From a virus (lineage: Duplodnaviria; Heunggongvirae; Uroviricota; Caudoviricetes), in the IMG/VR virus record IMGVR_UViG_2718218168_000003: a DNA stretch of 37,529 bases; one strand, 5' to 3'. How positions within the stretch are numbered: the first letter of the stretch is position 1; each line of letters begins with the position of its first letter. The notes beneath the pieces were generated by a model. It saw only the letters and a program-made list of their open reading frames with translations, was not told where the DNA came from and did not search any database. Positions 1 to 37,529 of the stretch are shown here, piece after piece. Position numbers and translations under genes: made by a program.

Positions 1-900
1 TTAACGCAATAATGGACAATCTGGTGGTAATCGACAATGCAACGCCGCCGGAAGTATTTCAATATGAAAGTTTTGTCCGCTCAACGGTTCGCCATCAAGA
101 TTAAAAGTGATTTCGTGTGGGGCTTGTATATCAAACCACGACGAAGCGCCTTCGATAATATTCGGGTTATCTTCGTCAGATTTTAAGGTTGATACGAGAG
201 CCGGAAGAATTTCATCGCCGGTAAAAATGCGCAGTTGCAGCAAGCCATCGTTAATTAACGCGTTCGGACACAATTGCTGACCGCCACCGGCCTGACGCCC
301 GTTACCAATACCAATGACCAGGGCGTCACCTTGCCAGTGAAAGTTTTCACCGCGGATTTCACAACGGTCCGGTTGCAGAGTATCCATGCGCATTAAGCCA
401 TGAATGATGTAAGAGACGCCACCCAGCGCGGCTTTTAATTTTTCCGGCGTTTCTGTGGTAATACGCGTCCCAAATCCGCCTGTCGCCATATTAATAAAAC
501 AGGTTTGTTTGTTGACCTGCGCCATATCTATCGCAATGGCGTTACCGGCAATTGCCAGTTTCAGCGCCTTATCCAGTGCCTCAGGAATCCCTACACTGGT
601 GGCAAAATCATTGGCGGTTCCTAATGGCAAAATTCCCAGCGCGGGTATGTCATCCCCCTCACACTGAATCAACGCCGTAGAAACTTCATTAATGGTGCCA
701 TCGCCACCACCGGCAATCACCGTTGCGACGCCCAACTTCCGGGCCTCCTCTACATATCGTGCGGCATCGCCTTTCTCCCAGGTGACCCGCACATGGATCG
801 TCATTCCTTCCTCACGCAACAGCATAATTGCTTCGCGCAAGGGTAGATTGTCAGTACTTTTGCCATTAAGAATCAGTAAGCTGGCGGGAAATTCTGCCAT
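1..900 (-). CDS. yegS: Lipid kinase YegS (diacylglycerol kinase catalytic domain family); complete 299 aa
   Basis: Full-length ORF with GGGDGT nucleotide-binding motif; sequence recalled as E. coli YegS; stop at 1..3, start at 898..900. Confidence 0.85.
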
Positions 901-1314
901 GATCGTATGTGCCTTTATGATTGGTCTGTAGATAGTGTAGAGCAGAAAACAAAAGGTGGAGTCAGAACAGGATGAAAGTCGGAGGATAAAAAGTCAGTTC
1001 AAGTATGGAGGATTCAGTGGTTACCACCAGGAGCTTGCAATGGGGACAGCGAATACTAACGGCTGCCACCGATAAATTTCAAAAAAGAGCATATGCCTAA
1101 TATTCAACCAAACAGTGGCATCTTAAATATACTATTCCAAATATATTAAAGCCCCCATGGAGTTACCCTGAAGGGCCTCAATGTCCGTAATTCCTACTTA
1201 TGTAGGAAATGTTGTACAGAACATTTATTATAATCCTATTCAATTATAATAATCATGCCATTATTATATTTAAACACTAGAGAGTGTCGTTGGTATTTAA
1301 TGGGGGAAGGTGAG

Positions 1315-1632
1315 ATGAAAAAGATAGCTGCTATATCATTAATTAGTATTTTTATTATGTCTGGTTGTGCTGTGCATAATGATGAGACAAGTATCGGTAA
1401 ATTTGGTCTTGCATATAAAAGTAATATTCAGCGTAAACTCGATAACCAATACTACACCGAAGCCGAAGCTTCTTTAGCCAGGGGCAGAATATCTGGTGCA
1501 GAAAATATAGTAAAAAATGATGCAGCCCATTTCTGTGTTACTCAGGGCAAAAAAATGCAGATAGTTGACCTGAAGACAGAAGGTGCAGGATTACATGGCG
1601 TCGCTCGTCTGACATTCAAATGTGGAGAGTGA
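1315..1632 (+). CDS. yegR: Small putative lipoprotein YegR (about 105 aa)
   Basis: In-frame ATG at 1315 preceded by GGAAGGTGAG Shine-Dalgarno; N-terminal hydrophobic signal ending in lipobox-like MSGC; matches recalled E. coli YegR; the upstream ATG at 1255 lacks an RBS. Confidence 0.7.
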   Translation: MKKIAAISLISIFIMSGCAVHNDETSIGKFGLAYKSNIQRKLDNQYYTEAEASLARGRISGAENIVKNDAAHFCVTQGKKMQIVDLKTEGAGLHGVARLTFKCGE

Positions 1633-1695
1633 GAATATTTTTTGGTAAGCGTCAAACATGCGCGTTCTGGTTGTGCTTAGCCGGAACCTGTGCGA

Positions 1696-1735
1696 GCACG
1701 ATGCCGTTACGTGAAAGGCATCGTGCTATGAAGGG
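1696..1735. repeat. Inverted repeat (11-bp stem AGCACGATGCC / GGCATCGTGCT, 11-nt loop) with no following U-tract
   Basis: Perfect dyad read directly from the sequence between yegR and attL. Confidence 0.4.
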
Positions 1736-1790
1736 AGATTCTATCGATGTGGTCAATGGAAGACGGTGACCAGGGATAGGGCTTATGCAT

Positions 1791-1817
1791 AAAAAATAAG
1801 CCCGTGTAAGGGAGATT
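1791..1817. repeat. attL core, 27 bp AAAAAATAAGCCCGTGTAAGGGAGATT (P2 att core)
   Basis: Exact direct repeat of 35997..36023; lies immediately outside int. Confidence 0.85.
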
Positions 1818-1896
1818 TAGGGTGTCACCAGTAGGGGCTTTCAACGGTACAATGCGGGTTTGAGCGGCATAAATTACCACTGAAAGCCCTTAAACG

Positions 1897-2910
1897 TTAC
1901 TCTACTGTGGACACTGTGTGGACACTCTCGACCTCAGTACCACCTCTTAGCGGATTAAGAGAAATGGCGTCCTGAAGGTACTCTGGCGCAAAATGAGCGT
2001 AAACCATAGTTTGCTCAATCCGCGTGTGACCTAGTATCCGTTGTAGCGTGATAATACTTCCTCCATTAATCATGAAATGAGTGGCAAAGCTGTGCCTTAG
2101 TGCATGTGTAGCTTGCCCCATTGGCAAATCCGGTTTTATTGCTTTCATTGTTCGTCTGAAGCGAGGGTAATCAGCATCAGGGAATAAAAAACCTCGTTTG
2201 TTATCCGCGATCATTTTGGCAACAGCCTCTGAGATCGGGACGGTGCGTGGTTTGTTTGTTTTCGTTTTAACAAACGTGACGCGGTTATGGATGATATTTT
2301 CTGCTTTCAAACGAGCTGCTTCTCCCCAACGTGCTCCAGTACTCAGGCAAAGAATCGCAATCTTTTTGTTGTCGCCGTCAAGAGCAGCAAGCAGTAAGGC
2401 AATTTCTTCCTGCGTGAGATAGCCTGTGTCTGGTTTTTCCTCCTTAAGCCTTTTTGTCCCTCTGATAGGGTGCTCACCAAAGAATAACTCCGCTTCAATC
2501 AGGGCTGTAAACATGCCGCTAATACATGTTAAATCACGATTGATACTCGAAGGTTTAATACCCTGACTTCTTCGGGTGGCGCAGTACTGGCTGATAAGCG
2601 ATTTCGTAATTTGAAATGCGCATGGGTCATTCGTTATTTTTGTGAAGATTTCAATTTTCCCAAGATTAGATTTCCCATGCTCTTCGTGTTTACCCTTTAA
2701 ATCCCACCAGATCTGTGTCAGCTCCGACAGACGTCGCTTGTCTGTTGGTTTTGATAGCCATTCTTTATTGTGGTGGTTGTACAACGTGTATTTCTCGAAA
2801 GCGACAGCTTCGCTTTTCTTATCAAACTTCCTACGGATGCGTTTTCCATTACGTCCAGTAGGGCGGATGTCCACTTCATATCGACCATCATCGAGTTTTT
2901 TGATTGCCAT
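1897..2910 (-). CDS. int: P2-type tyrosine integrase (337 aa)
   Basis: Full ORF; C-terminal HxLRHxxAT...Y tyrosine-recombinase signature (ALRHSFATHF, MVYAHF); adjacent to attL; recalled as P2 Int. Confidence 0.93.
   Translation of the reverse strand: MAIKKLDDGRYEVDIRPTGRNGKRIRRKFDKKSEAVAFEKYTLYNHHNKEWLSKPTDKRRLSELTQIWWDLKGKHEEHGKSNLGKIEIFTKITNDPCAFQITKSLISQYCATRRSQGIKPSSINRDLTCISGMFTALIEAELFFGEHPIRGTKRLKEEKPDTGYLTQEEIALLLAALDGDNKKIAILCLSTGARWGEAARLKAENIIHNRVTFVKTKTNKPRTVPISEAVAKMIADNKRGFLFPDADYPRFRRTMKAIKPDLPMGQATHALRHSFATHFMINGGSIITLQRILGHTRIEQTMVYAHFAPEYLQDAISLNPLRGGTEVESVHTVSTVE
1906..1926. promoter_or_regulatory. Two direct TGTGGACACT repeats (1906..1915, 1917..1926), candidate Int arm-type binding sites of the attP P-prime arm, overlapping the int 3-prime end
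   Basis: Direct repeats seen in sequence; a similar TGTGGAC motif occurs in the opposite arm at 35949..35956. Confidence 0.4.
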
Positions 2911-34431: not shown

Positions 34432-35594
34432 TGCTGGATGCGCTGACATTTGATGCAGGCAGTACGCTGACGCCGGATTACATGCTGATGCTCGACAGCA
34501 GGGATATTACCAGCAATATCAGTGACCGTCTGATGAGCATGACCCTGACGGATAACCGGGGCTTTGAGGCTGACCAGCTTGATATTGAACTGAACGATGC
34601 CGACGGGCAGGTCGGGCTGCCGGTTCGTGGCGCTGTCCTGACGGTGTATATCGGCTGGAAAGGTTTTGCCCTGGTATGCAAAGGGAAATTCACCGTTGAT
34701 GAGGTTGAACACCGGGGCGCGCCGGATGTGGTCACCATCCGCGCCCGGAGTGCAGATTTCCGCGGGACGCTCAATTCCCGCCGGGAAGGCTCATGGCATG
34801 ACACCACGCTCGGTGCGATTGTTGAGGCGATAGCCTCCCGTAACAGGCTGGAAGCCAGTGTCGCTCCGTCACTGGCCGGAATTAAAATCCCGCACATCGA
34901 CCAGTCGCAGGAGTCTGATGCGAAATTCCTGACCCGTCTTGCAGAACGCAACGGCGGTGAGGTCTCGGTAAAAATGGGAAAACTGTTGTTTCTCAAAGCG
35001 GGGCAGGGGGTGACGGCCAGCGGTAAAAAAATCCCGCAGGTCACCATAACCCGCAGCGACGGCGACCGCCATCATTTTGCGATTGCTGACCGTGGAGCCT
35101 ATACCGGTGTAACGGCAAAGTGGTTACACACCAAAGACCCGAAGCCGCAAAAGCAGAAGGTAAAACTGAAACGCAAAAAGAAAGAGAAACACCTGCGCGC
35201 ACTGGAGCACCCGAAAGCGAAACCGGTCACGCAGAAGAAAGCGCCAAAAGTACCGGAAGCACGCGAAGGTGAATACATGGCCGGTGAGGCTGACAACGTT
35301 TTTGCCCTGACCACGGTATATGCCACGAAAGCGCAGGCCATGCGCGCCGCTCAGGCGAAGTGGGATAAACTGCAACGGGGTGTAGCGGAGTTCTCCATCA
35401 GCCTGGCTACCGGTCGGGCAGATATTTACACGGAAACACCGGTCAAAGTGTCAGGCTTTAAGCGTGTCATAGACGAGCAGGACTGGACAATCACTAAGGT
35501 GACACATTTTCTGAATAATAGCGGCTTCACGACGTCCTTAGAGCTTGAGGTAAGGCTTTCTGATGTGGAGTACGAAACCGAAGATGATGAGTGA
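34431..35594 (+). CDS. D: Tail protein gpD (387 aa)
   Basis: Full ORF; recalled as P2 gpD. Confidence 0.93.
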   Translation: MLDALTFDAGSTLTPDYMLMLDSRDITSNISDRLMSMTLTDNRGFEADQLDIELNDADGQVGLPVRGAVLTVYIGWKGFALVCKGKFTVDEVEHRGAPDVVTIRARSADFRGTLNSRREGSWHDTTLGAIVEAIASRNRLEASVAPSLAGIKIPHIDQSQESDAKFLTRLAERNGGEVSVKMGKLLFLKAGQGVTASGKKIPQVTITRSDGDRHHFAIADRGAYTGVTAKWLHTKDPKPQKQKVKLKRKKKEKHLRALEHPKAKPVTQKKAPKVPEAREGEYMAGEADNVFALTTVYATKAQAMRAAQAKWDKLQRGVAEFSISLATGRADIYTETPVKVSGFKRVIDEQDWTITKVTHFLNNSGFTTSLELEVRLSDVEYETEDDE

Positions 35595-35676: not shown

Positions 35677-35895
35677 ATGTTTCATTGTCCTTTATGCCAG
35701 CATGCCGCACATGCGCGTACAAGTCGCTATATCACTGACACGACAAAAGAGCGTTATCACCAGTGTCAGAACGTGAATTGCAGCGCCACGTTCATCACTT
35801 ATGAGTCTGTACAGCGATACATTGTGAAGCCGGGAGAAGTCCACGCCGTGAGGCCGCACCCGTTGCCGTCAGGGCAGCAAATTATGTGGATGTAA
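35677..35895 (+). CDS. ogr: Late gene transcriptional activator Ogr (zinc finger, 72 aa)
   Basis: Start MFHCPLCQHAAHA at 35677; CxxC...C...C zinc-binding pattern; recalled as P2 Ogr. Confidence 0.9.
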   Translation: MFHCPLCQHAAHARTSRYITDTTKERYHQCQNVNCSATFITYESVQRYIVKPGEVHAVRPHPLPSGQQIMWM

Positions 35896-35906
35896 TTACA
35901 AACAGA

Positions 35907-35932
35907 AAGCCCCTCAGTCGAGGGGCTTTTTT
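35907..35932 (+). terminator. Rho-independent terminator after ogr (stem AGCCCCTC / GAGGGGCT, loop AGTC, then T6)
   Basis: Hairpin plus T-run seen in sequence. Confidence 0.65.
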
Positions 35933-35996
35933 GTCGATGTGGTCAATGTGTGGACGTGACCAGAAATAAATCCTTTTATTTCAATTTGTTGTACGT

Positions 35997-36023
35997 AAAA
36001 AATAAGCCCGTGTAAGGGAGATT
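35997..36023. repeat. attR core, 27 bp AAAAAATAAGCCCGTGTAAGGGAGATT
   Basis: Exact direct repeat of 1791..1817. Confidence 0.85.
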
Positions 36024-36083
36024 ACACAGGCTAAGGAGGTGGTTCCTGGTACAGCTAGCATTTTATGGGTTATGTTTTTCAGC
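35997..36083 (-). ncRNA. cyaR: CyaR (RyeE) Hfq-dependent sRNA, about 87 nt; its 3-prime 27 nt coincide with the prophage att core
   Basis: Minus-strand sequence GCTGAAAAACATAACCC...CACCTCCTTAGCC...CTTACACGGGCTTATTTTTT matches the recalled CyaR sequence, including the CCUCCUUA seed and the terminator U-tract. Confidence 0.75.
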
Positions 36084-36127
36084 GAAACGGATGATAACCT
36101 TAATAAATGCAGCTGTATGTGATCGGT

Positions 36128-36167: not shown

Positions 36168-37529
36168 TCACTTACCGTGGGGATTACGCGTGGTTTCCCC
36201 GGAGAAATTACGCATCAGCAGCGCGTAATTGAGCTCAAGATCCTGCGGGACCGGGAGCCACACAGTATAACCATCGCCTGGTGCTATCGGCATAGCTTCG
36301 CCTTTGGCGTTTTCCATGTGCTCAAGGGTAAAATTAATGTTGCCTTGCGGCGTCATCAGCTCAAGGCTGTCGCCAACGGAGAATTTATTTTTCACCGCTA
36401 CCGCCGCGAGGTCCCCCTTGCGCTCACCGGTAAACTCACCAACAAACTGCTGGCGGTCAGAAACTGAATAACCGTATTCGTAGTTCTGATAATCGTCGTG
36501 AGTATGACGACGCAGGAAACCTTCGGTATAGCCACGATGCGCCAGACCTTCCAGAGTTTCCAGCAGGCTGGTATCGAACGGTTTTCCCGCAGCGGCGTCA
36601 TCGATAGCTTTGCGGTAAACCTGTGCGGTGCGTGCACAATAGTAGAAAGATTTGGTACGACCTTCGATTTTCAGCGAATGCACGCCCATTTTGGTCAGGC
36701 GTTCTACATGGGCGATGGCGCGCAGATCTTTCGAGTTCATGATGTAAGTGCCGTGCTCATCTTCAAACGCGGTCATATACTCGCCCGGACGCTGGGCCTC
36801 TTCGATCATAAACACTTTGTCGGTTGGTGCGCCGATACCCAGCGTCGGCTCAACATTTTGCACCGGAATCGGCTCGTACTTGTGTACGATGTTGCCAACA
36901 TCATCTTCTTTCCCTTCCTGGACGTTGTACTCCCAGCGGCAGGCGTTGGTGCAGGTGCCCTGGTTCGGGTCGCGCTTGTTGATATAGCCAGAGAGCAGGC
37001 AGCGACCGGAGTAGGCCATGCACAGCGCGCCGTGAACGAAGATCTCGATCTCCATATCCGGCACCTGATTGCGGATCTCTTCAATCTCTTCCAGCGACAG
37101 CTCGCGAGAGAGGATCACGCGGGTCAGGCCCATTTGCTGCCAGAATTTCACCGTCGCCCAGTTCACGGCGTTAGCCTGCACCGAAAGGTGGATCGGCATT
37201 TCAGGGAAGTGCTCACGCACCAGCATAATCAGCCCTGGATCGGACATAATCAGCGCATCCGGCCCCATTTCCACCACCGGTTTCAGGTCACGGATAAAGG
37301 TTTTCAGCTTGGCGTTGTGCGGTGCAATGTTGACCACGACATAAAACTTTTTCCCCAGCGCGTGGGCTTCATTGATGCCGAGCTGAAGATTTTCGTGGTT
37401 GAATTCGTTGTTGCGCACACGCAGGGAATAACGCGGCTGGCCCGCATAAACAGCATCTGCGCCATAAGCGAAAGCGTAACGCATATTTTTCAGCGTTCCC
37501 GCCGGGGAAAGGAGTTCCGGTTTAAACAT
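36168..37529 (-). CDS. yegQ: U32-family peptidase YegQ (453 aa, complete; start codon at the window edge)
   Basis: Full ORF; recalled as E. coli YegQ; reverse complement of the last window bases gives ATGTTTAAACCGG (MFKP). Confidence 0.88.
   Translation of the reverse strand: MFKPELLSPAGTLKNMRYAFAYGADAVYAGQPRYSLRVRNNEFNHENLQLGINEAHALGKKFYVVVNIAPHNAKLKTFIRDLKPVVEMGPDALIMSDPGLIMLVREHFPEMPIHLSVQANAVNWATVKFWQQMGLTRVILSRELSLEEIEEIRNQVPDMEIEIFVHGALCMAYSGRCLLSGYINKRDPNQGTCTNACRWEYNVQEGKEDDVGNIVHKYEPIPVQNVEPTLGIGAPTDKVFMIEEAQRPGEYMTAFEDEHGTYIMNSKDLRAIAHVERLTKMGVHSLKIEGRTKSFYYCARTAQVYRKAIDDAAAGKPFDTSLLETLEGLAHRGYTEGFLRRHTHDDYQNYEYGYSVSDRQQFVGEFTGERKGDLAAVAVKNKFSVGDSLELMTPQGNINFTLEHMENAKGEAMPIAPGDGYTVWLPVPQDLELNYALLMRNFSGETTRNPHGK

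What the first reader, a model, noticed from the sequence alone, without database searches (positions are those of the whole stretch)
1633..1790. Left chromosomal flank looks like the ogr-distal end of an older P2-like element (serial integration at the same site)
The sequence just left of attL (1747..1775, TCGATGTGGTCAATGGAAGACGGTGACCAG) closely resembles the phage P-arm sequence just left of attR (35932..35960, TCGATGTGGTCAATGTGTGGACGTGACCAG), and is preceded by AAGGGAGATT, the 3-prime part of the att core. This suggests the present prophage integrated into the attR of a pre-existing, now largely deleted, P2-like element. E. coli K-12 is known to keep P2 remnants (ogrK, yegZ) at this locus, and here yegR abuts the remnant directly. 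The 11-bp-stem hairpin at 1696..1735 has no U-tract and is unexplained.
Basis: inference. Interest (0 to 1): 0.4.

Follow-up and report, generated by a model that had tools for sequence, protein, structure and literature searches.

The report
Fossil P2 attachment scar beside cyaR
The DNA just left of this P2 prophage is the worn-down right end of a much older P2-like prophage that almost all E. coli carry, so it is the ordinary flank of the P2 integration site, not a peculiarity of this strain.

Summary
Window 1744-1773 shares TCGATGTGGTCAATG, a 7-nt gap and GTGACCAG with 35934-35963. In phage P2 that stretch is the annotated P-arm binding site of integrase.

Over 1744-1790, 36 of 46 aligned bases match the P2 P arm. 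Eight of the 10 mismatches are transitions, and a 16-nt gap removes the IHF site. No shuffle reached the observed score.

The flank is not strain-specific. It runs up to the 27-nt core in 5387 of 5426 complete E. coli genomes. The reconstructed empty junction (flank + core + cyaR) occurs in 4572 of them.

The core is the 3' half of the CyaR sRNA terminator. In Citrobacter koseri and Kluyvera, yegS lies about 75-100 bp from that core, with no yegR and no arm-like sequence.

E. coli has a decayed core plus P' arm at 986-1043, exactly where the ancestral core should be. So 986-1790, including yegR, looks like an ancient P2-like relic. This part is weaker.

E. albertii (cdtABC) and Salmonella (sseK2) have comparable scars at the same site.

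The K-12 ogrK/yegZ remnant is a separate, younger layer in the slot the present prophage occupies. The hairpin (1695-1727) is real, single-copy and lacks a U-tract; its role is unresolved.

Verdict: ordinary, modest interest.

The parts
1..900 (-). yegS (lipid kinase), left chromosomal gene
   Evidence: ORF list; annotated as yegS in matching E. coli records.
901..985 (.). Ancestral bacterial arm: the yegS-cyaR spacer shared with species that have no insertion
   Evidence: It aligns collinearly with the yegS-to-core spacer of C. koseri, C. amalonaticus, Salmonella, E. albertii and Kluyvera. E. albertii matches window 1-992 at 86% identity.
986..1043 (+). Strongly decayed attL of an ancient P2-like element: core-like 988-1014 (18/27 by hand count), then P'-arm-like 1015-1043 (21/29 by hand count)
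   Evidence: Local alignment to the present attL (1789-1847) scores 26, against shuffles 17.3 +/- 2.2 (3/1000). It sits in the register where C. koseri and Kluyvera have the live core, and where E. albertii has a 90%-identical P2 core plus P' arm. BLASTN carries the E. coli / E. albertii alignment through that relic. The P' part alone is weak (69-178 of 2000 shuffles).
1044..1314 (.). AT-rich interior of the relic upstream of yegR (35% G+C), origin unknown
   Evidence: Composition. Absent from C. koseri and Kluyvera. No homology to the E. albertii island.
1315..1632 (+). yegR, a small orphan lipoprotein gene (PF27694) lying inside the proposed relic
   Evidence: ORF and annotation. Homologues are almost confined to Escherichia. 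More distant ones sit in unrelated loci, and DNA homology to those homologues is confined to 1305-1635, essentially the ORF. 38% G+C.
1664..1688 (+). First stem-loop downstream of yegR
   Evidence: Predicted in the fold of 1640-1789.
1695..1727 (+).
   Evidence: Centroid -20.8 kcal/mol; segment MFE -24.6 kcal/mol, z -4.35. Not called as a terminator. No Rfam match. Single copy per genome. In 11 strains the stem varies only at the two loop-proximal pairs; two or three of the 11 loop positions (1706, 1707, 1710) vary.
1731..1740 (+). AAGGGAGATT, identical to the last 10 nt of the core but polymorphic in E. coli
   Evidence: Alternative alignment with the tail of the ogr terminator.
1744..1790 (+). 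Fossil P arm of a P2-type attR. 1744-1771 corresponds to the Int arm-type binding site (first repeat TGTGGTCA intact, second TGTGGAC changed to GGAAGAC). The IHF site is largely deleted. 1783-1790 (TTATGCAT) is the core-proximal remainder.
1791..1817 (+). attL core of the present prophage, identical to the attR core
1818..2910 (-). P' arm and int of the present P2-type prophage (int 1897-2910)
   Evidence: ORF list. P2 annotation of the Cox and Int P'-arm sites. The prophage is 96.7% identical to P2 over about 80% of the query 1818-26000.
35677..35895 (+). ogr of the present prophage
   Evidence: Sequence; annotated as ogr in P2.
35906..35996 (+). ogr terminator (35906-35932), Int P-arm site (35934-35961) and IHF site (about 35965-35998) of the present prophage
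   Evidence: Transferred from the AF063097 features by 99.3% identity.
35997..36023 (+). attR core, the live copy that forms the 3' half of the CyaR terminator
36000..36085 (-). cyaR (RyeE) sRNA gene
   Evidence: Rfam RF00112, 100.7 bits, E = 3.6e-19.
36168..37529 (-). yegQ (trhP), right chromosomal gene
   Evidence: Position transferred from L001 annotation.

Best explanation
Window 1633-1790 is the bacterial arm of the P2 attachment site at the 3' end of cyaR. Its last 47 bp (1744-1790) are the fossil P arm of an ancient P2-like prophage.

Shown:
- P2-type phages recombine within a 27-nt core that is the 3' half of the CyaR terminator.
- Integration duplicates the core.
- The copy next to cyaR is intact in every genome examined.

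Inferred mechanism: the cyaR-proximal core stays under selection as the sRNA terminator and so remains a usable attB, while the distal copy and the prophage body are free to decay. An early Escherichia lineage took in such a phage, which then shrank to about 800 bp (986-1790). That relic has a decayed core plus P' arm next to yegS, an AT-rich interior holding yegR, and a half-preserved Int arm site next to the live core. This state became fixed in E. coli. Every later P2 integration, including the K-12 D'-ogrK remnant and the intact prophage in this window, has therefore gone into a fossil attR, and newer layers always lie on the cyaR side of older ones.

The fossil arm has lost one of two Int repeats and its IHF site, so it is most likely non-functional.

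The hairpin at 1695-1727 is most likely a 3' stem-loop of the yegR transcript. This is an inference of low confidence.
For: - P-arm homology: (score 38 against 15.0 +/- 2.3; 0/1000).
- The shared block equals the annotated Int P-arm site of P2.
- Species-wide presence: 5387/5426 genomes, and the empty junction in 4572/5426.
- The core is the CyaR terminator. cyaR is listed as a P2 insertion site in E. coli W, K-12 and B (PMC3032704).
- Unoccupied arrangement without yegR or arm-like sequence in C. koseri and Kluyvera. The C. koseri spacer scores at chance against the P arm.
- Decayed attL in E. coli in the expected register.
- Parallels. E. albertii has cdtABC bounded by a 90%-identical core plus P' arm next to yegS and a P-arm relic next to cyaR (score 48, 0/1000). 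Salmonella has a P-arm relic beside the sseK2 island (2/1000).
- The phage arm is phage-intrinsic. The first 104 nt of the query, ogr end through part of the IHF site, match at 97-100% in several P2-like phages that do not match the core-proximal part.
Against: - The E. coli attL relic is only about 70% identical. Its P' part alone is not significant, so the left boundary and the inclusion of yegR rest on position plus a 3/1000 score.
- No ogr, D or int similarity survives in 1044-1743, so the interior cannot be shown to be phage-derived. yegR could be a later insertion.
- The timing is unresolved. E. albertii shows a different island with no interior homology, so one shared event and separate events cannot be told apart.
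- No experiment bears on Int binding to the relic or on the hairpin.
Confidence: 0.75

Rival explanations
1. Recent, strain-specific serial integration: this strain, or a narrow lineage, carried an earlier P2-like prophage of the K-12 ogrK/yegZ kind. It was mostly deleted, and the present phage entered its attR.
For: The P-arm similarity itself. K-12 does keep a D'-ogrK remnant at this locus.
Against: The flank is present up to the core in 5387/5426 complete E. coli genomes, including prophage-free ones. The K-12 remnant lies to the right of this flank and begins inside the core. There is no ogr or D similarity in 1633-1790.
Confidence: 0.03
2. Chance, or convergence on a protein-binding motif: the flank resembles the P arm without common descent.
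For: The exact blocks are short (15 + 8 nt). The 10-mer AAGGGAGATT is polymorphic.
Against: No shuffle reaches the observed score (0/2000; 0/1000). The similarity keeps the same spacing and continues to the core with a strong transition bias. Unoccupied sites in C. koseri score at chance. Independent relics in E. albertii and Salmonella show the same decay pattern.
Confidence: 0.03
3. Reverse direction: P2-type phages picked up the host flank by imprecise excision, so the phage P arm derives from the chromosome.
For: Aberrant excision is a known route for phages to acquire flanking DNA (general knowledge).
Against: The stretch holds the Int arm-type repeats (TGTGGTCA / TGTGGAC), which recur in the P' arm. 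It is near-identical in P2-like phages whose core-proximal sequence differs. The host copy is the degenerate one: the second repeat is mutated and the IHF site deleted. Unoccupied host sites lack it.
Confidence: 0.04
4. The arm-like stretch is a fossil, but yegR and 1044-1743 are not part of it. A short attR scar was left after clean loss of the old phage, and yegR with its flanks arrived later by an unrelated insertion. The core-like stretch at 986-1043 is then a coincidence.
For: YegR homologues occur as lone genes in unrelated loci with homology confined to the ORF. The P'-like part alone is not significant. One strain has lost yegR by a simple deletion.
Against: The core-like plus P'-like stretch lies exactly where the ancestral core sits in C. 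koseri and Kluyvera, and where E. albertii has an unmistakable attL. The combined score is reached by 3/1000 shuffles before position is taken into account.
Confidence: 0.15

Closest known systems
P2 attR at the cyaR (locI) attachment site of E. coli, as in the intact prophage of this window and in P2 AF063097
   Same: The same 27-nt core follows it. It has the same first Int arm-type repeat and the same GTGACCAG block at the same spacing. The core-proximal octamer is related (TTATGCAT against TTGTACGT or TTACGCGT).
   Different: The second Int repeat is mutated, 16 nt of the IHF site are missing, and no ogr or ogr terminator lies upstream. It is fixed in the species rather than carried by a phage.
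K-12 cryptic P2 remnant (yegZ = D', ogrK, attR); title of Barreiro and Haggard-Ljungquist 1992, cited in PMC3091744; 'ogr-D'' in PMC3032704
   Same: It is also a decayed P2-type prophage at the cyaR core, and it shows that relics accumulate here.
   Different: It is a younger layer in a different position, to the right of the flank studied here, and it still holds recognisable D' and ogr. K-12 carries both layers.
E. albertii chromosomal cdtABC island between yegS and cyaR
   Same: It lies in the same interval and has the same architecture: B arm, decayed core plus P' arm, cargo, P-arm relic, live core, cyaR.
   Different: Its att relics are much better preserved (90% for core + P'; P-arm score 48). 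The cargo is cdtABC rather than yegR, and there is no interior homology with E. coli.
Prophage scars and tandem islands at tRNA, tmRNA and sRNA 3' ends in general
   Same: Integration regenerates the RNA's 3' end, so the site stays usable and successive elements stack beside it (general knowledge). rybB, ssrA and tRNA genes are listed as comparable sites in PMC3032704.
   Different: Nothing essential. This is one more instance, at an sRNA terminator.

Membership tests
P2-type attR junction (P arm + core) | 27-nt core identical to the attP core immediately to the right | tested here: met
   1791-1817 is identical to 35997-36023 and to the P2 attP core.
P2-type attR junction (P arm + core) | Two Int arm-type repeats in the P arm (annotated 'Int, P arm' in AF063097) | tested here: inconclusive
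   The block is recognisable (15/15 + 8/8), but only the first repeat (TGTGGTCA) is intact. The second (TGTGGAC) reads GGAAGAC. Binding was not tested.
P2-type attR junction (P arm + core) | IHF site between the arm site and the core | tested here: not met
   17 nt separate GTGACCAG from the core, against 33 nt in P2. A 16-nt gap covers the A/T-rich IHF region.
P2-type attR junction (P arm + core) | ogr and its terminator directly upstream of the arm | tested here: not met
   No phage similarity in 1633-1743. The only phage-database hits are records that include host flank, plus a chance-level hit to phage 186 (E = 0.5).
Integrated-element relic bounded by att direct repeats | A second copy of the core at the far end, joined to the ancestral flank | tested here: inconclusive
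   988-1014 matches the core at 18/27 (hand count), in the register of the C. koseri, Kluyvera and E. albertii cores. The combined core + P' score is reached by 3/1000 shuffles; P' alone is not significant.
Integrated-element relic bounded by att direct repeats | The interval is absent from related species that keep both flanking genes | tested here: met
   In C. koseri and two Kluyvera species, yegS is about 75-100 bp from the core, with no yegR.
K-12 ogrK/yegZ cryptic P2 remnant | Contains the D 3' fragment and ogr, and lies between the left flank and cyaR | tested here: not met
   In K-12 the remnant starts inside the core, to the right of the sequence homologous to 1633-1790.
Intrinsic (Rho-independent) terminator, for the hairpin 1695-1727 | G+C-rich stem followed by a U-tract | tested here: not met
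   The stem is present, but ATGAAGGGAG follows it. No terminator-like site was found in 850-1950.
REP/MITE-type repeated palindrome, for the hairpin | Many copies per genome | tested here: not met
   Median of one place per genome in 5417 genomes.
Known structured RNA family (Rfam), for 880-1900 | Match at or near the gathering score | tested here: not met
   Only cyaR passes in the window. The two sub-threshold hits in 880-1900 are eukaryotic families at E > 1.

The most novel reading that the evidence does not exclude
The fossil Int arm-type site in the bacterial arm is still bound by P2 integrase. The attB at cyaR, and the attL formed there, would then behave partly like an attP. This would contribute to P2's strong preference for this site, or to the poor excision of P2 from it.

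More broadly, the islands next to cyaR in E. coli (yegR), E. albertii (cdtABC) and Salmonella (sseK2) would all be cargo left behind by P2-family phages.
Probability: 0.1. Interest if true: 0.5.

Novelty: new member of a known kind. Interest (0 to 1): 0.3.

Why it matters
It turns a curiosity into ordinary, well-understood biology. The left flank of the classic P2 attachment site at cyaR is itself a prophage scar.

Three modest consequences follow:
- Prophage-boundary calls at this locus should stop at the core and should not count the arm-like flank as part of the element.
- The orphan gene yegR gets a plausible origin as phage-delivered or scar-resident DNA.
- The yegS-cyaR interval becomes a small, datable record of repeated P2-family integration across Escherichia and Salmonella, with different cargo (yegR, cdtABC, sseK2) left in each lineage.

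None of this changes what is known about P2 recombination, unless the fossil arm site proves to be bound by integrase.

Tried and rejected
- BLASTN of 1633-1790 against 50,697 phage records. The only real hits were 'Phage TP' AY639599 and vB_EcoM-720R8, and both records include E. coli host flank. A hit to the right end of phage 186 had E = 0.5 and was treated as chance.
- TBLASTN of YegR against phages found only those same two records, so no extant phage is known to carry yegR.
- I tried to build a profile of diverse cyaR-type attP sites. The five phage attP regions fetched are nearly identical, so a profile added nothing.
- The interior of the E. coli relic compared with the E. albertii island gave no hits at E <= 0.1.
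- Rfam at a permissive threshold on 880-1900 gave only chance-level eukaryotic families.
- Reading AAGGGAGATT as a truncated core was rejected as evidence, because it is polymorphic and has an equally good alternative alignment.
- Reading the hairpin as the old element's ogr terminator was rejected. The P2 terminator arms do not align with it, and it has no U-tract.
- Barreiro and Haggard-Ljungquist 1992 (PMC206120) and De Lay and Gottesman 2009 (PMC2620814) are not held. What they say about the flank could not be checked.
- L027 and L028 (YegR at 78-88% identity) turned out to be frameshift-ridden assemblies of the same locus and were not used.

Full report
**Layout of the window**

The window runs exactly from the stop codon of yegS (1-900, minus strand) to the start codon of yegQ (36168-37529, minus strand). 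Between them lie:
- yegR (1315-1632);
- a 158-bp flank (1633-1790);
- a 27-nt core (1791-1817);
- a prophage 96.7% identical to P2 over about 80% of the query 1818-26000, with int at 1897-2910 and ogr at 35677-35895;
- the phage P arm;
- a second identical core (35997-36023);
- the sRNA gene cyaR on the minus strand (36000-36085; Rfam RF00112, 100.7 bits).

 The core is therefore the 3' half of the CyaR terminator plus its U-tract. cyaR is a published insertion site for P2 prophages in E. coli W, K-12 ('ogr-D'') and B (PMC3032704).

**Checking the observation**

Window 1744-1773 and 35934-35963 share TCGATGTGGTCAATG and GTGACCAG with the same 7-nt spacing.
- The ungapped score exceeds all of 2000 shuffles.
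- The gapped local score of 1633-1790 against the P2 P arm is 38, against 15.0 +/- 2.3 for shuffles (0/1000).
- The homology continues to the core. Over 1744-1790, 36 of 46 aligned positions are identical and 8 of the 10 mismatches are transitions. One 16-nt gap falls in the A/T-rich region.

In the deposited P2 genome, the shared block is exactly the feature annotated 'protein_bind: Int, P arm', and the gapped region is the annotated IHF site. The relic keeps the first Int repeat (TGTGGTCA). It has lost the second (TGTGGAC has become GGAAGAC).

The 10-mer AAGGGAGATT at 1731-1740 is present. However, it reads AAGGAGGATT in K-12, Nissle, EC96 and S. flexneri, and AAGGGGGATT in strain 98232. It aligns about as well with the tail of the ogr terminator as with the core. 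I do not count it as evidence.

**Distribution within E. coli**

The flank up to the end of the core is present in 5387 of 5426 complete E. coli genomes. In prophage-free strains such as fECg99.1 and Nissle 1917 it adjoins cyaR directly. A reconstructed empty junction (flank + core + cyaR) is found as one place in 4572 of 5426 genomes. That count includes K-12-type genomes, whose 630-bp remnant is bridged by the search.

So this is the normal bacterial arm of the attachment site, not a property of this lysogen.

In K-12 the known D'-ogrK remnant lies to the right of this flank, starting inside the core. It occupies the slot that the intact prophage occupies here and is a separate, younger layer.

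**Direction of descent**

The first 104 nt of the query, ogr end through part of the IHF site, match at 97-100% in several P2-like phages that do not match the core-proximal part. The same Int repeat motif recurs in the P' arm. The host copy is the degenerate one. The arm is therefore phage-derived, and the chromosomal copy is a fossil.

**Other species**

A scan of species-representative genomes for core + cyaR, together with loci fetched through YegS homologues, gave the following.
- Unoccupied state. In two Kluyvera species and in Citrobacter koseri, the yegS start codon is only about 75-100 bp from the core, with no yegR and no arm-like sequence. The C. koseri spacer scores at chance against the P arm.
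- Ancestral spacer in E. coli. E. coli 901-985 aligns collinearly with that spacer.
- Decayed attL in E. coli. Where those species have the live core, E. coli has ATAAAAAGTCAGTTCAAGTATGGAGGATT followed by CAGTGGTTACCACCAGGAGCTTGCAATGG (986-1043). This aligns with the present attL core plus P' arm at 41 of 58 positions (my count from the alignment). The score is 26 against 17.3 +/- 2.2 (3/1000). Taken alone, the P' part is not significant, so this boundary rests on score plus exact position.

**E. albertii**

E. albertii gives a clear parallel (identity of the YegS cluster confirmed). Next to yegS it has the same B arm, then a slightly decayed core, then 64 bp of P' arm. Core and P' arm together are 90% identical to P2. 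cdtCBA follows. On the cyaR side, some strains keep ACAGTGGACGCGATCAGAAATAAACCCTCTTATTTCATTAAATTACGCGT plus the core (score 48, 0/1000), while others keep only the last 13 nt.

BLASTN aligns E. coli with E. albertii straight through the attL relic.

**Salmonella and the overall picture**

Salmonella has TGTGGTCAATTTTTGGA...ATTGATTGTACGC plus the core beside its sseK2 island (2/1000). cyaR lies between yegQ and STM2137 there (PMC2515195).

The interval next to cyaR therefore records repeated P2-family integrations, with different cargo left in different lineages.

**yegR**

YegR (PF27694) is almost confined to Escherichia. More distant homologues (47-81% identity) sit in unrelated loci, and DNA homology to those homologues is confined to 1305-1635, essentially the ORF. 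No phage record carries it apart from two records that include host flank.

The interval 1044-1632 is AT-rich (35-38% G+C, against about 50% around it). Whether yegR arrived with the old phage or was inserted later cannot be decided. One strain has lost most of it through a deletion of about 307 bp.

**The hairpin**

The stem-loop at 1695-1727 is stable. The centroid (the hairpin alone) is -20.8 kcal/mol; the 61-nt segment has an MFE of -24.6 kcal/mol, z = -4.35.
- It occurs once per genome.
- It has no Rfam match.
- No U-tract follows it, and the terminator scan does not call it.
- In 11 strains, the only stem changes are at the two loop-proximal pairs, while two or three of the 11 loop positions (1706, 1707, 1710) vary. 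No compensatory change was seen.
- It does not align with the P2 ogr terminator.

My best guess, held with low confidence, is a 3' stem-loop of the yegR transcript.

**Verdict**

The core of the interpretation (the flank is the ogr-distal end of an older P2-like element) is supported, with four corrections:
1. The event is ancient and species-wide.
2. It is unrelated to the K-12 ogrK/yegZ remnant.
3. yegR probably lies inside the relic.
4. The AAGGGAGATT argument does not hold.

This is an ordinary kind of feature: a prophage scar at an RNA-gene attachment site. I found no published description of this particular scar, but the key 1992 paper could not be read.

Noticed in passing
window 35380-35395 (gene D) and L002 3540-3575 (K-12): The K-12 D'-ogrK remnant joins the attL core to gene D at a core-like stretch. 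The core reads CCCGTGTAAGGGAG and D reads GGGGTGTAGCGGAG (shared GTGTA). The deletion that made the remnant may have used this microhomology, or a secondary Int site.
   Followed up: partly
L003 3384-3553 (Nissle 1917), equivalent to window 1636/1637: Nissle 1917 (L003) carries a 170-bp AT-rich insertion directly after the yegR stop codon. Six other records listed, including APEC O18 and ZJ3920, show the same 170-bp-longer, two-piece match. Its nature was not examined.
   Followed up: no
L048 (FDAARGOS_1077), equivalent to window about 1360-1664: One strain lacks most of yegR and its 3' flank through a deletion of about 307 bp. It keeps both hairpin 1695-1727 and the P-arm fossil.
   Followed up: partly
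L044 (FDAARGOS_1280), equivalent to window 1777/1778: A 12-nt insertion (TCAATCCGTCTC) plus several substitutions lie inside the P-arm fossil of a strain that also carries a P2-type prophage.
   Followed up: no
L041/L042 (C. amalonaticus), about 125 bp between the B arm and the core: An extra segment with terminal inverted repeats (TAAATCGCGATAC ... GTACCGCGATTTA) contains ATAGAAAACCAGGTGACCAGGG. This resembles E. coli 1756-1775 (score 23, 3/1000 shuffles) more than it resembles the P2 arm. It could be a related fossil or a coincidence.
   Followed up: partly
L049-L052 (E. albertii), core next to cyaR: The live core is polymorphic in E. albertii. It is P2/E. coli-type (GCCCGTGTAAGG) in L049 and L051, and Citrobacter/Salmonella-type (GCCTGCGTAAGG) in L050 and L052. 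This suggests that phage integration can overwrite the 3' half of the CyaR terminator.
   Followed up: no
L006, L011, L012, L013 (Enterobacter hormaechei, Kluyvera cryocrescens, K. ascorbata): The same core is adjoined on its left by sequences with no P2-arm similarity. In K. ascorbata this looks like the end of a small regulator gene. Other kinds of element may use this site.
   Followed up: no
phage-collection records AY639599.1 ('Phage TP') and ON470606.1 (vB_EcoM-720R8): Both 'phage' records contain E. coli chromosomal flank (yegR and its downstream region), so hits to them are host DNA, not phage genes.
   Followed up: yes
L023-L026, L029 (unidentified Enterobacteriaceae contigs): A YegR homologue (76-81% identity) sits between a glutaminase gene and a nitroreductase gene. 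It is followed by an unannotated 108-110-aa ORF that E. coli lacks.
   Followed up: no
window 23025-23531: Three overlapping 243-nt copies lie at 132-nt spacing (80-86% identity) inside the prophage late region. This is an internal tandem repeat in a structural gene.
   Followed up: no
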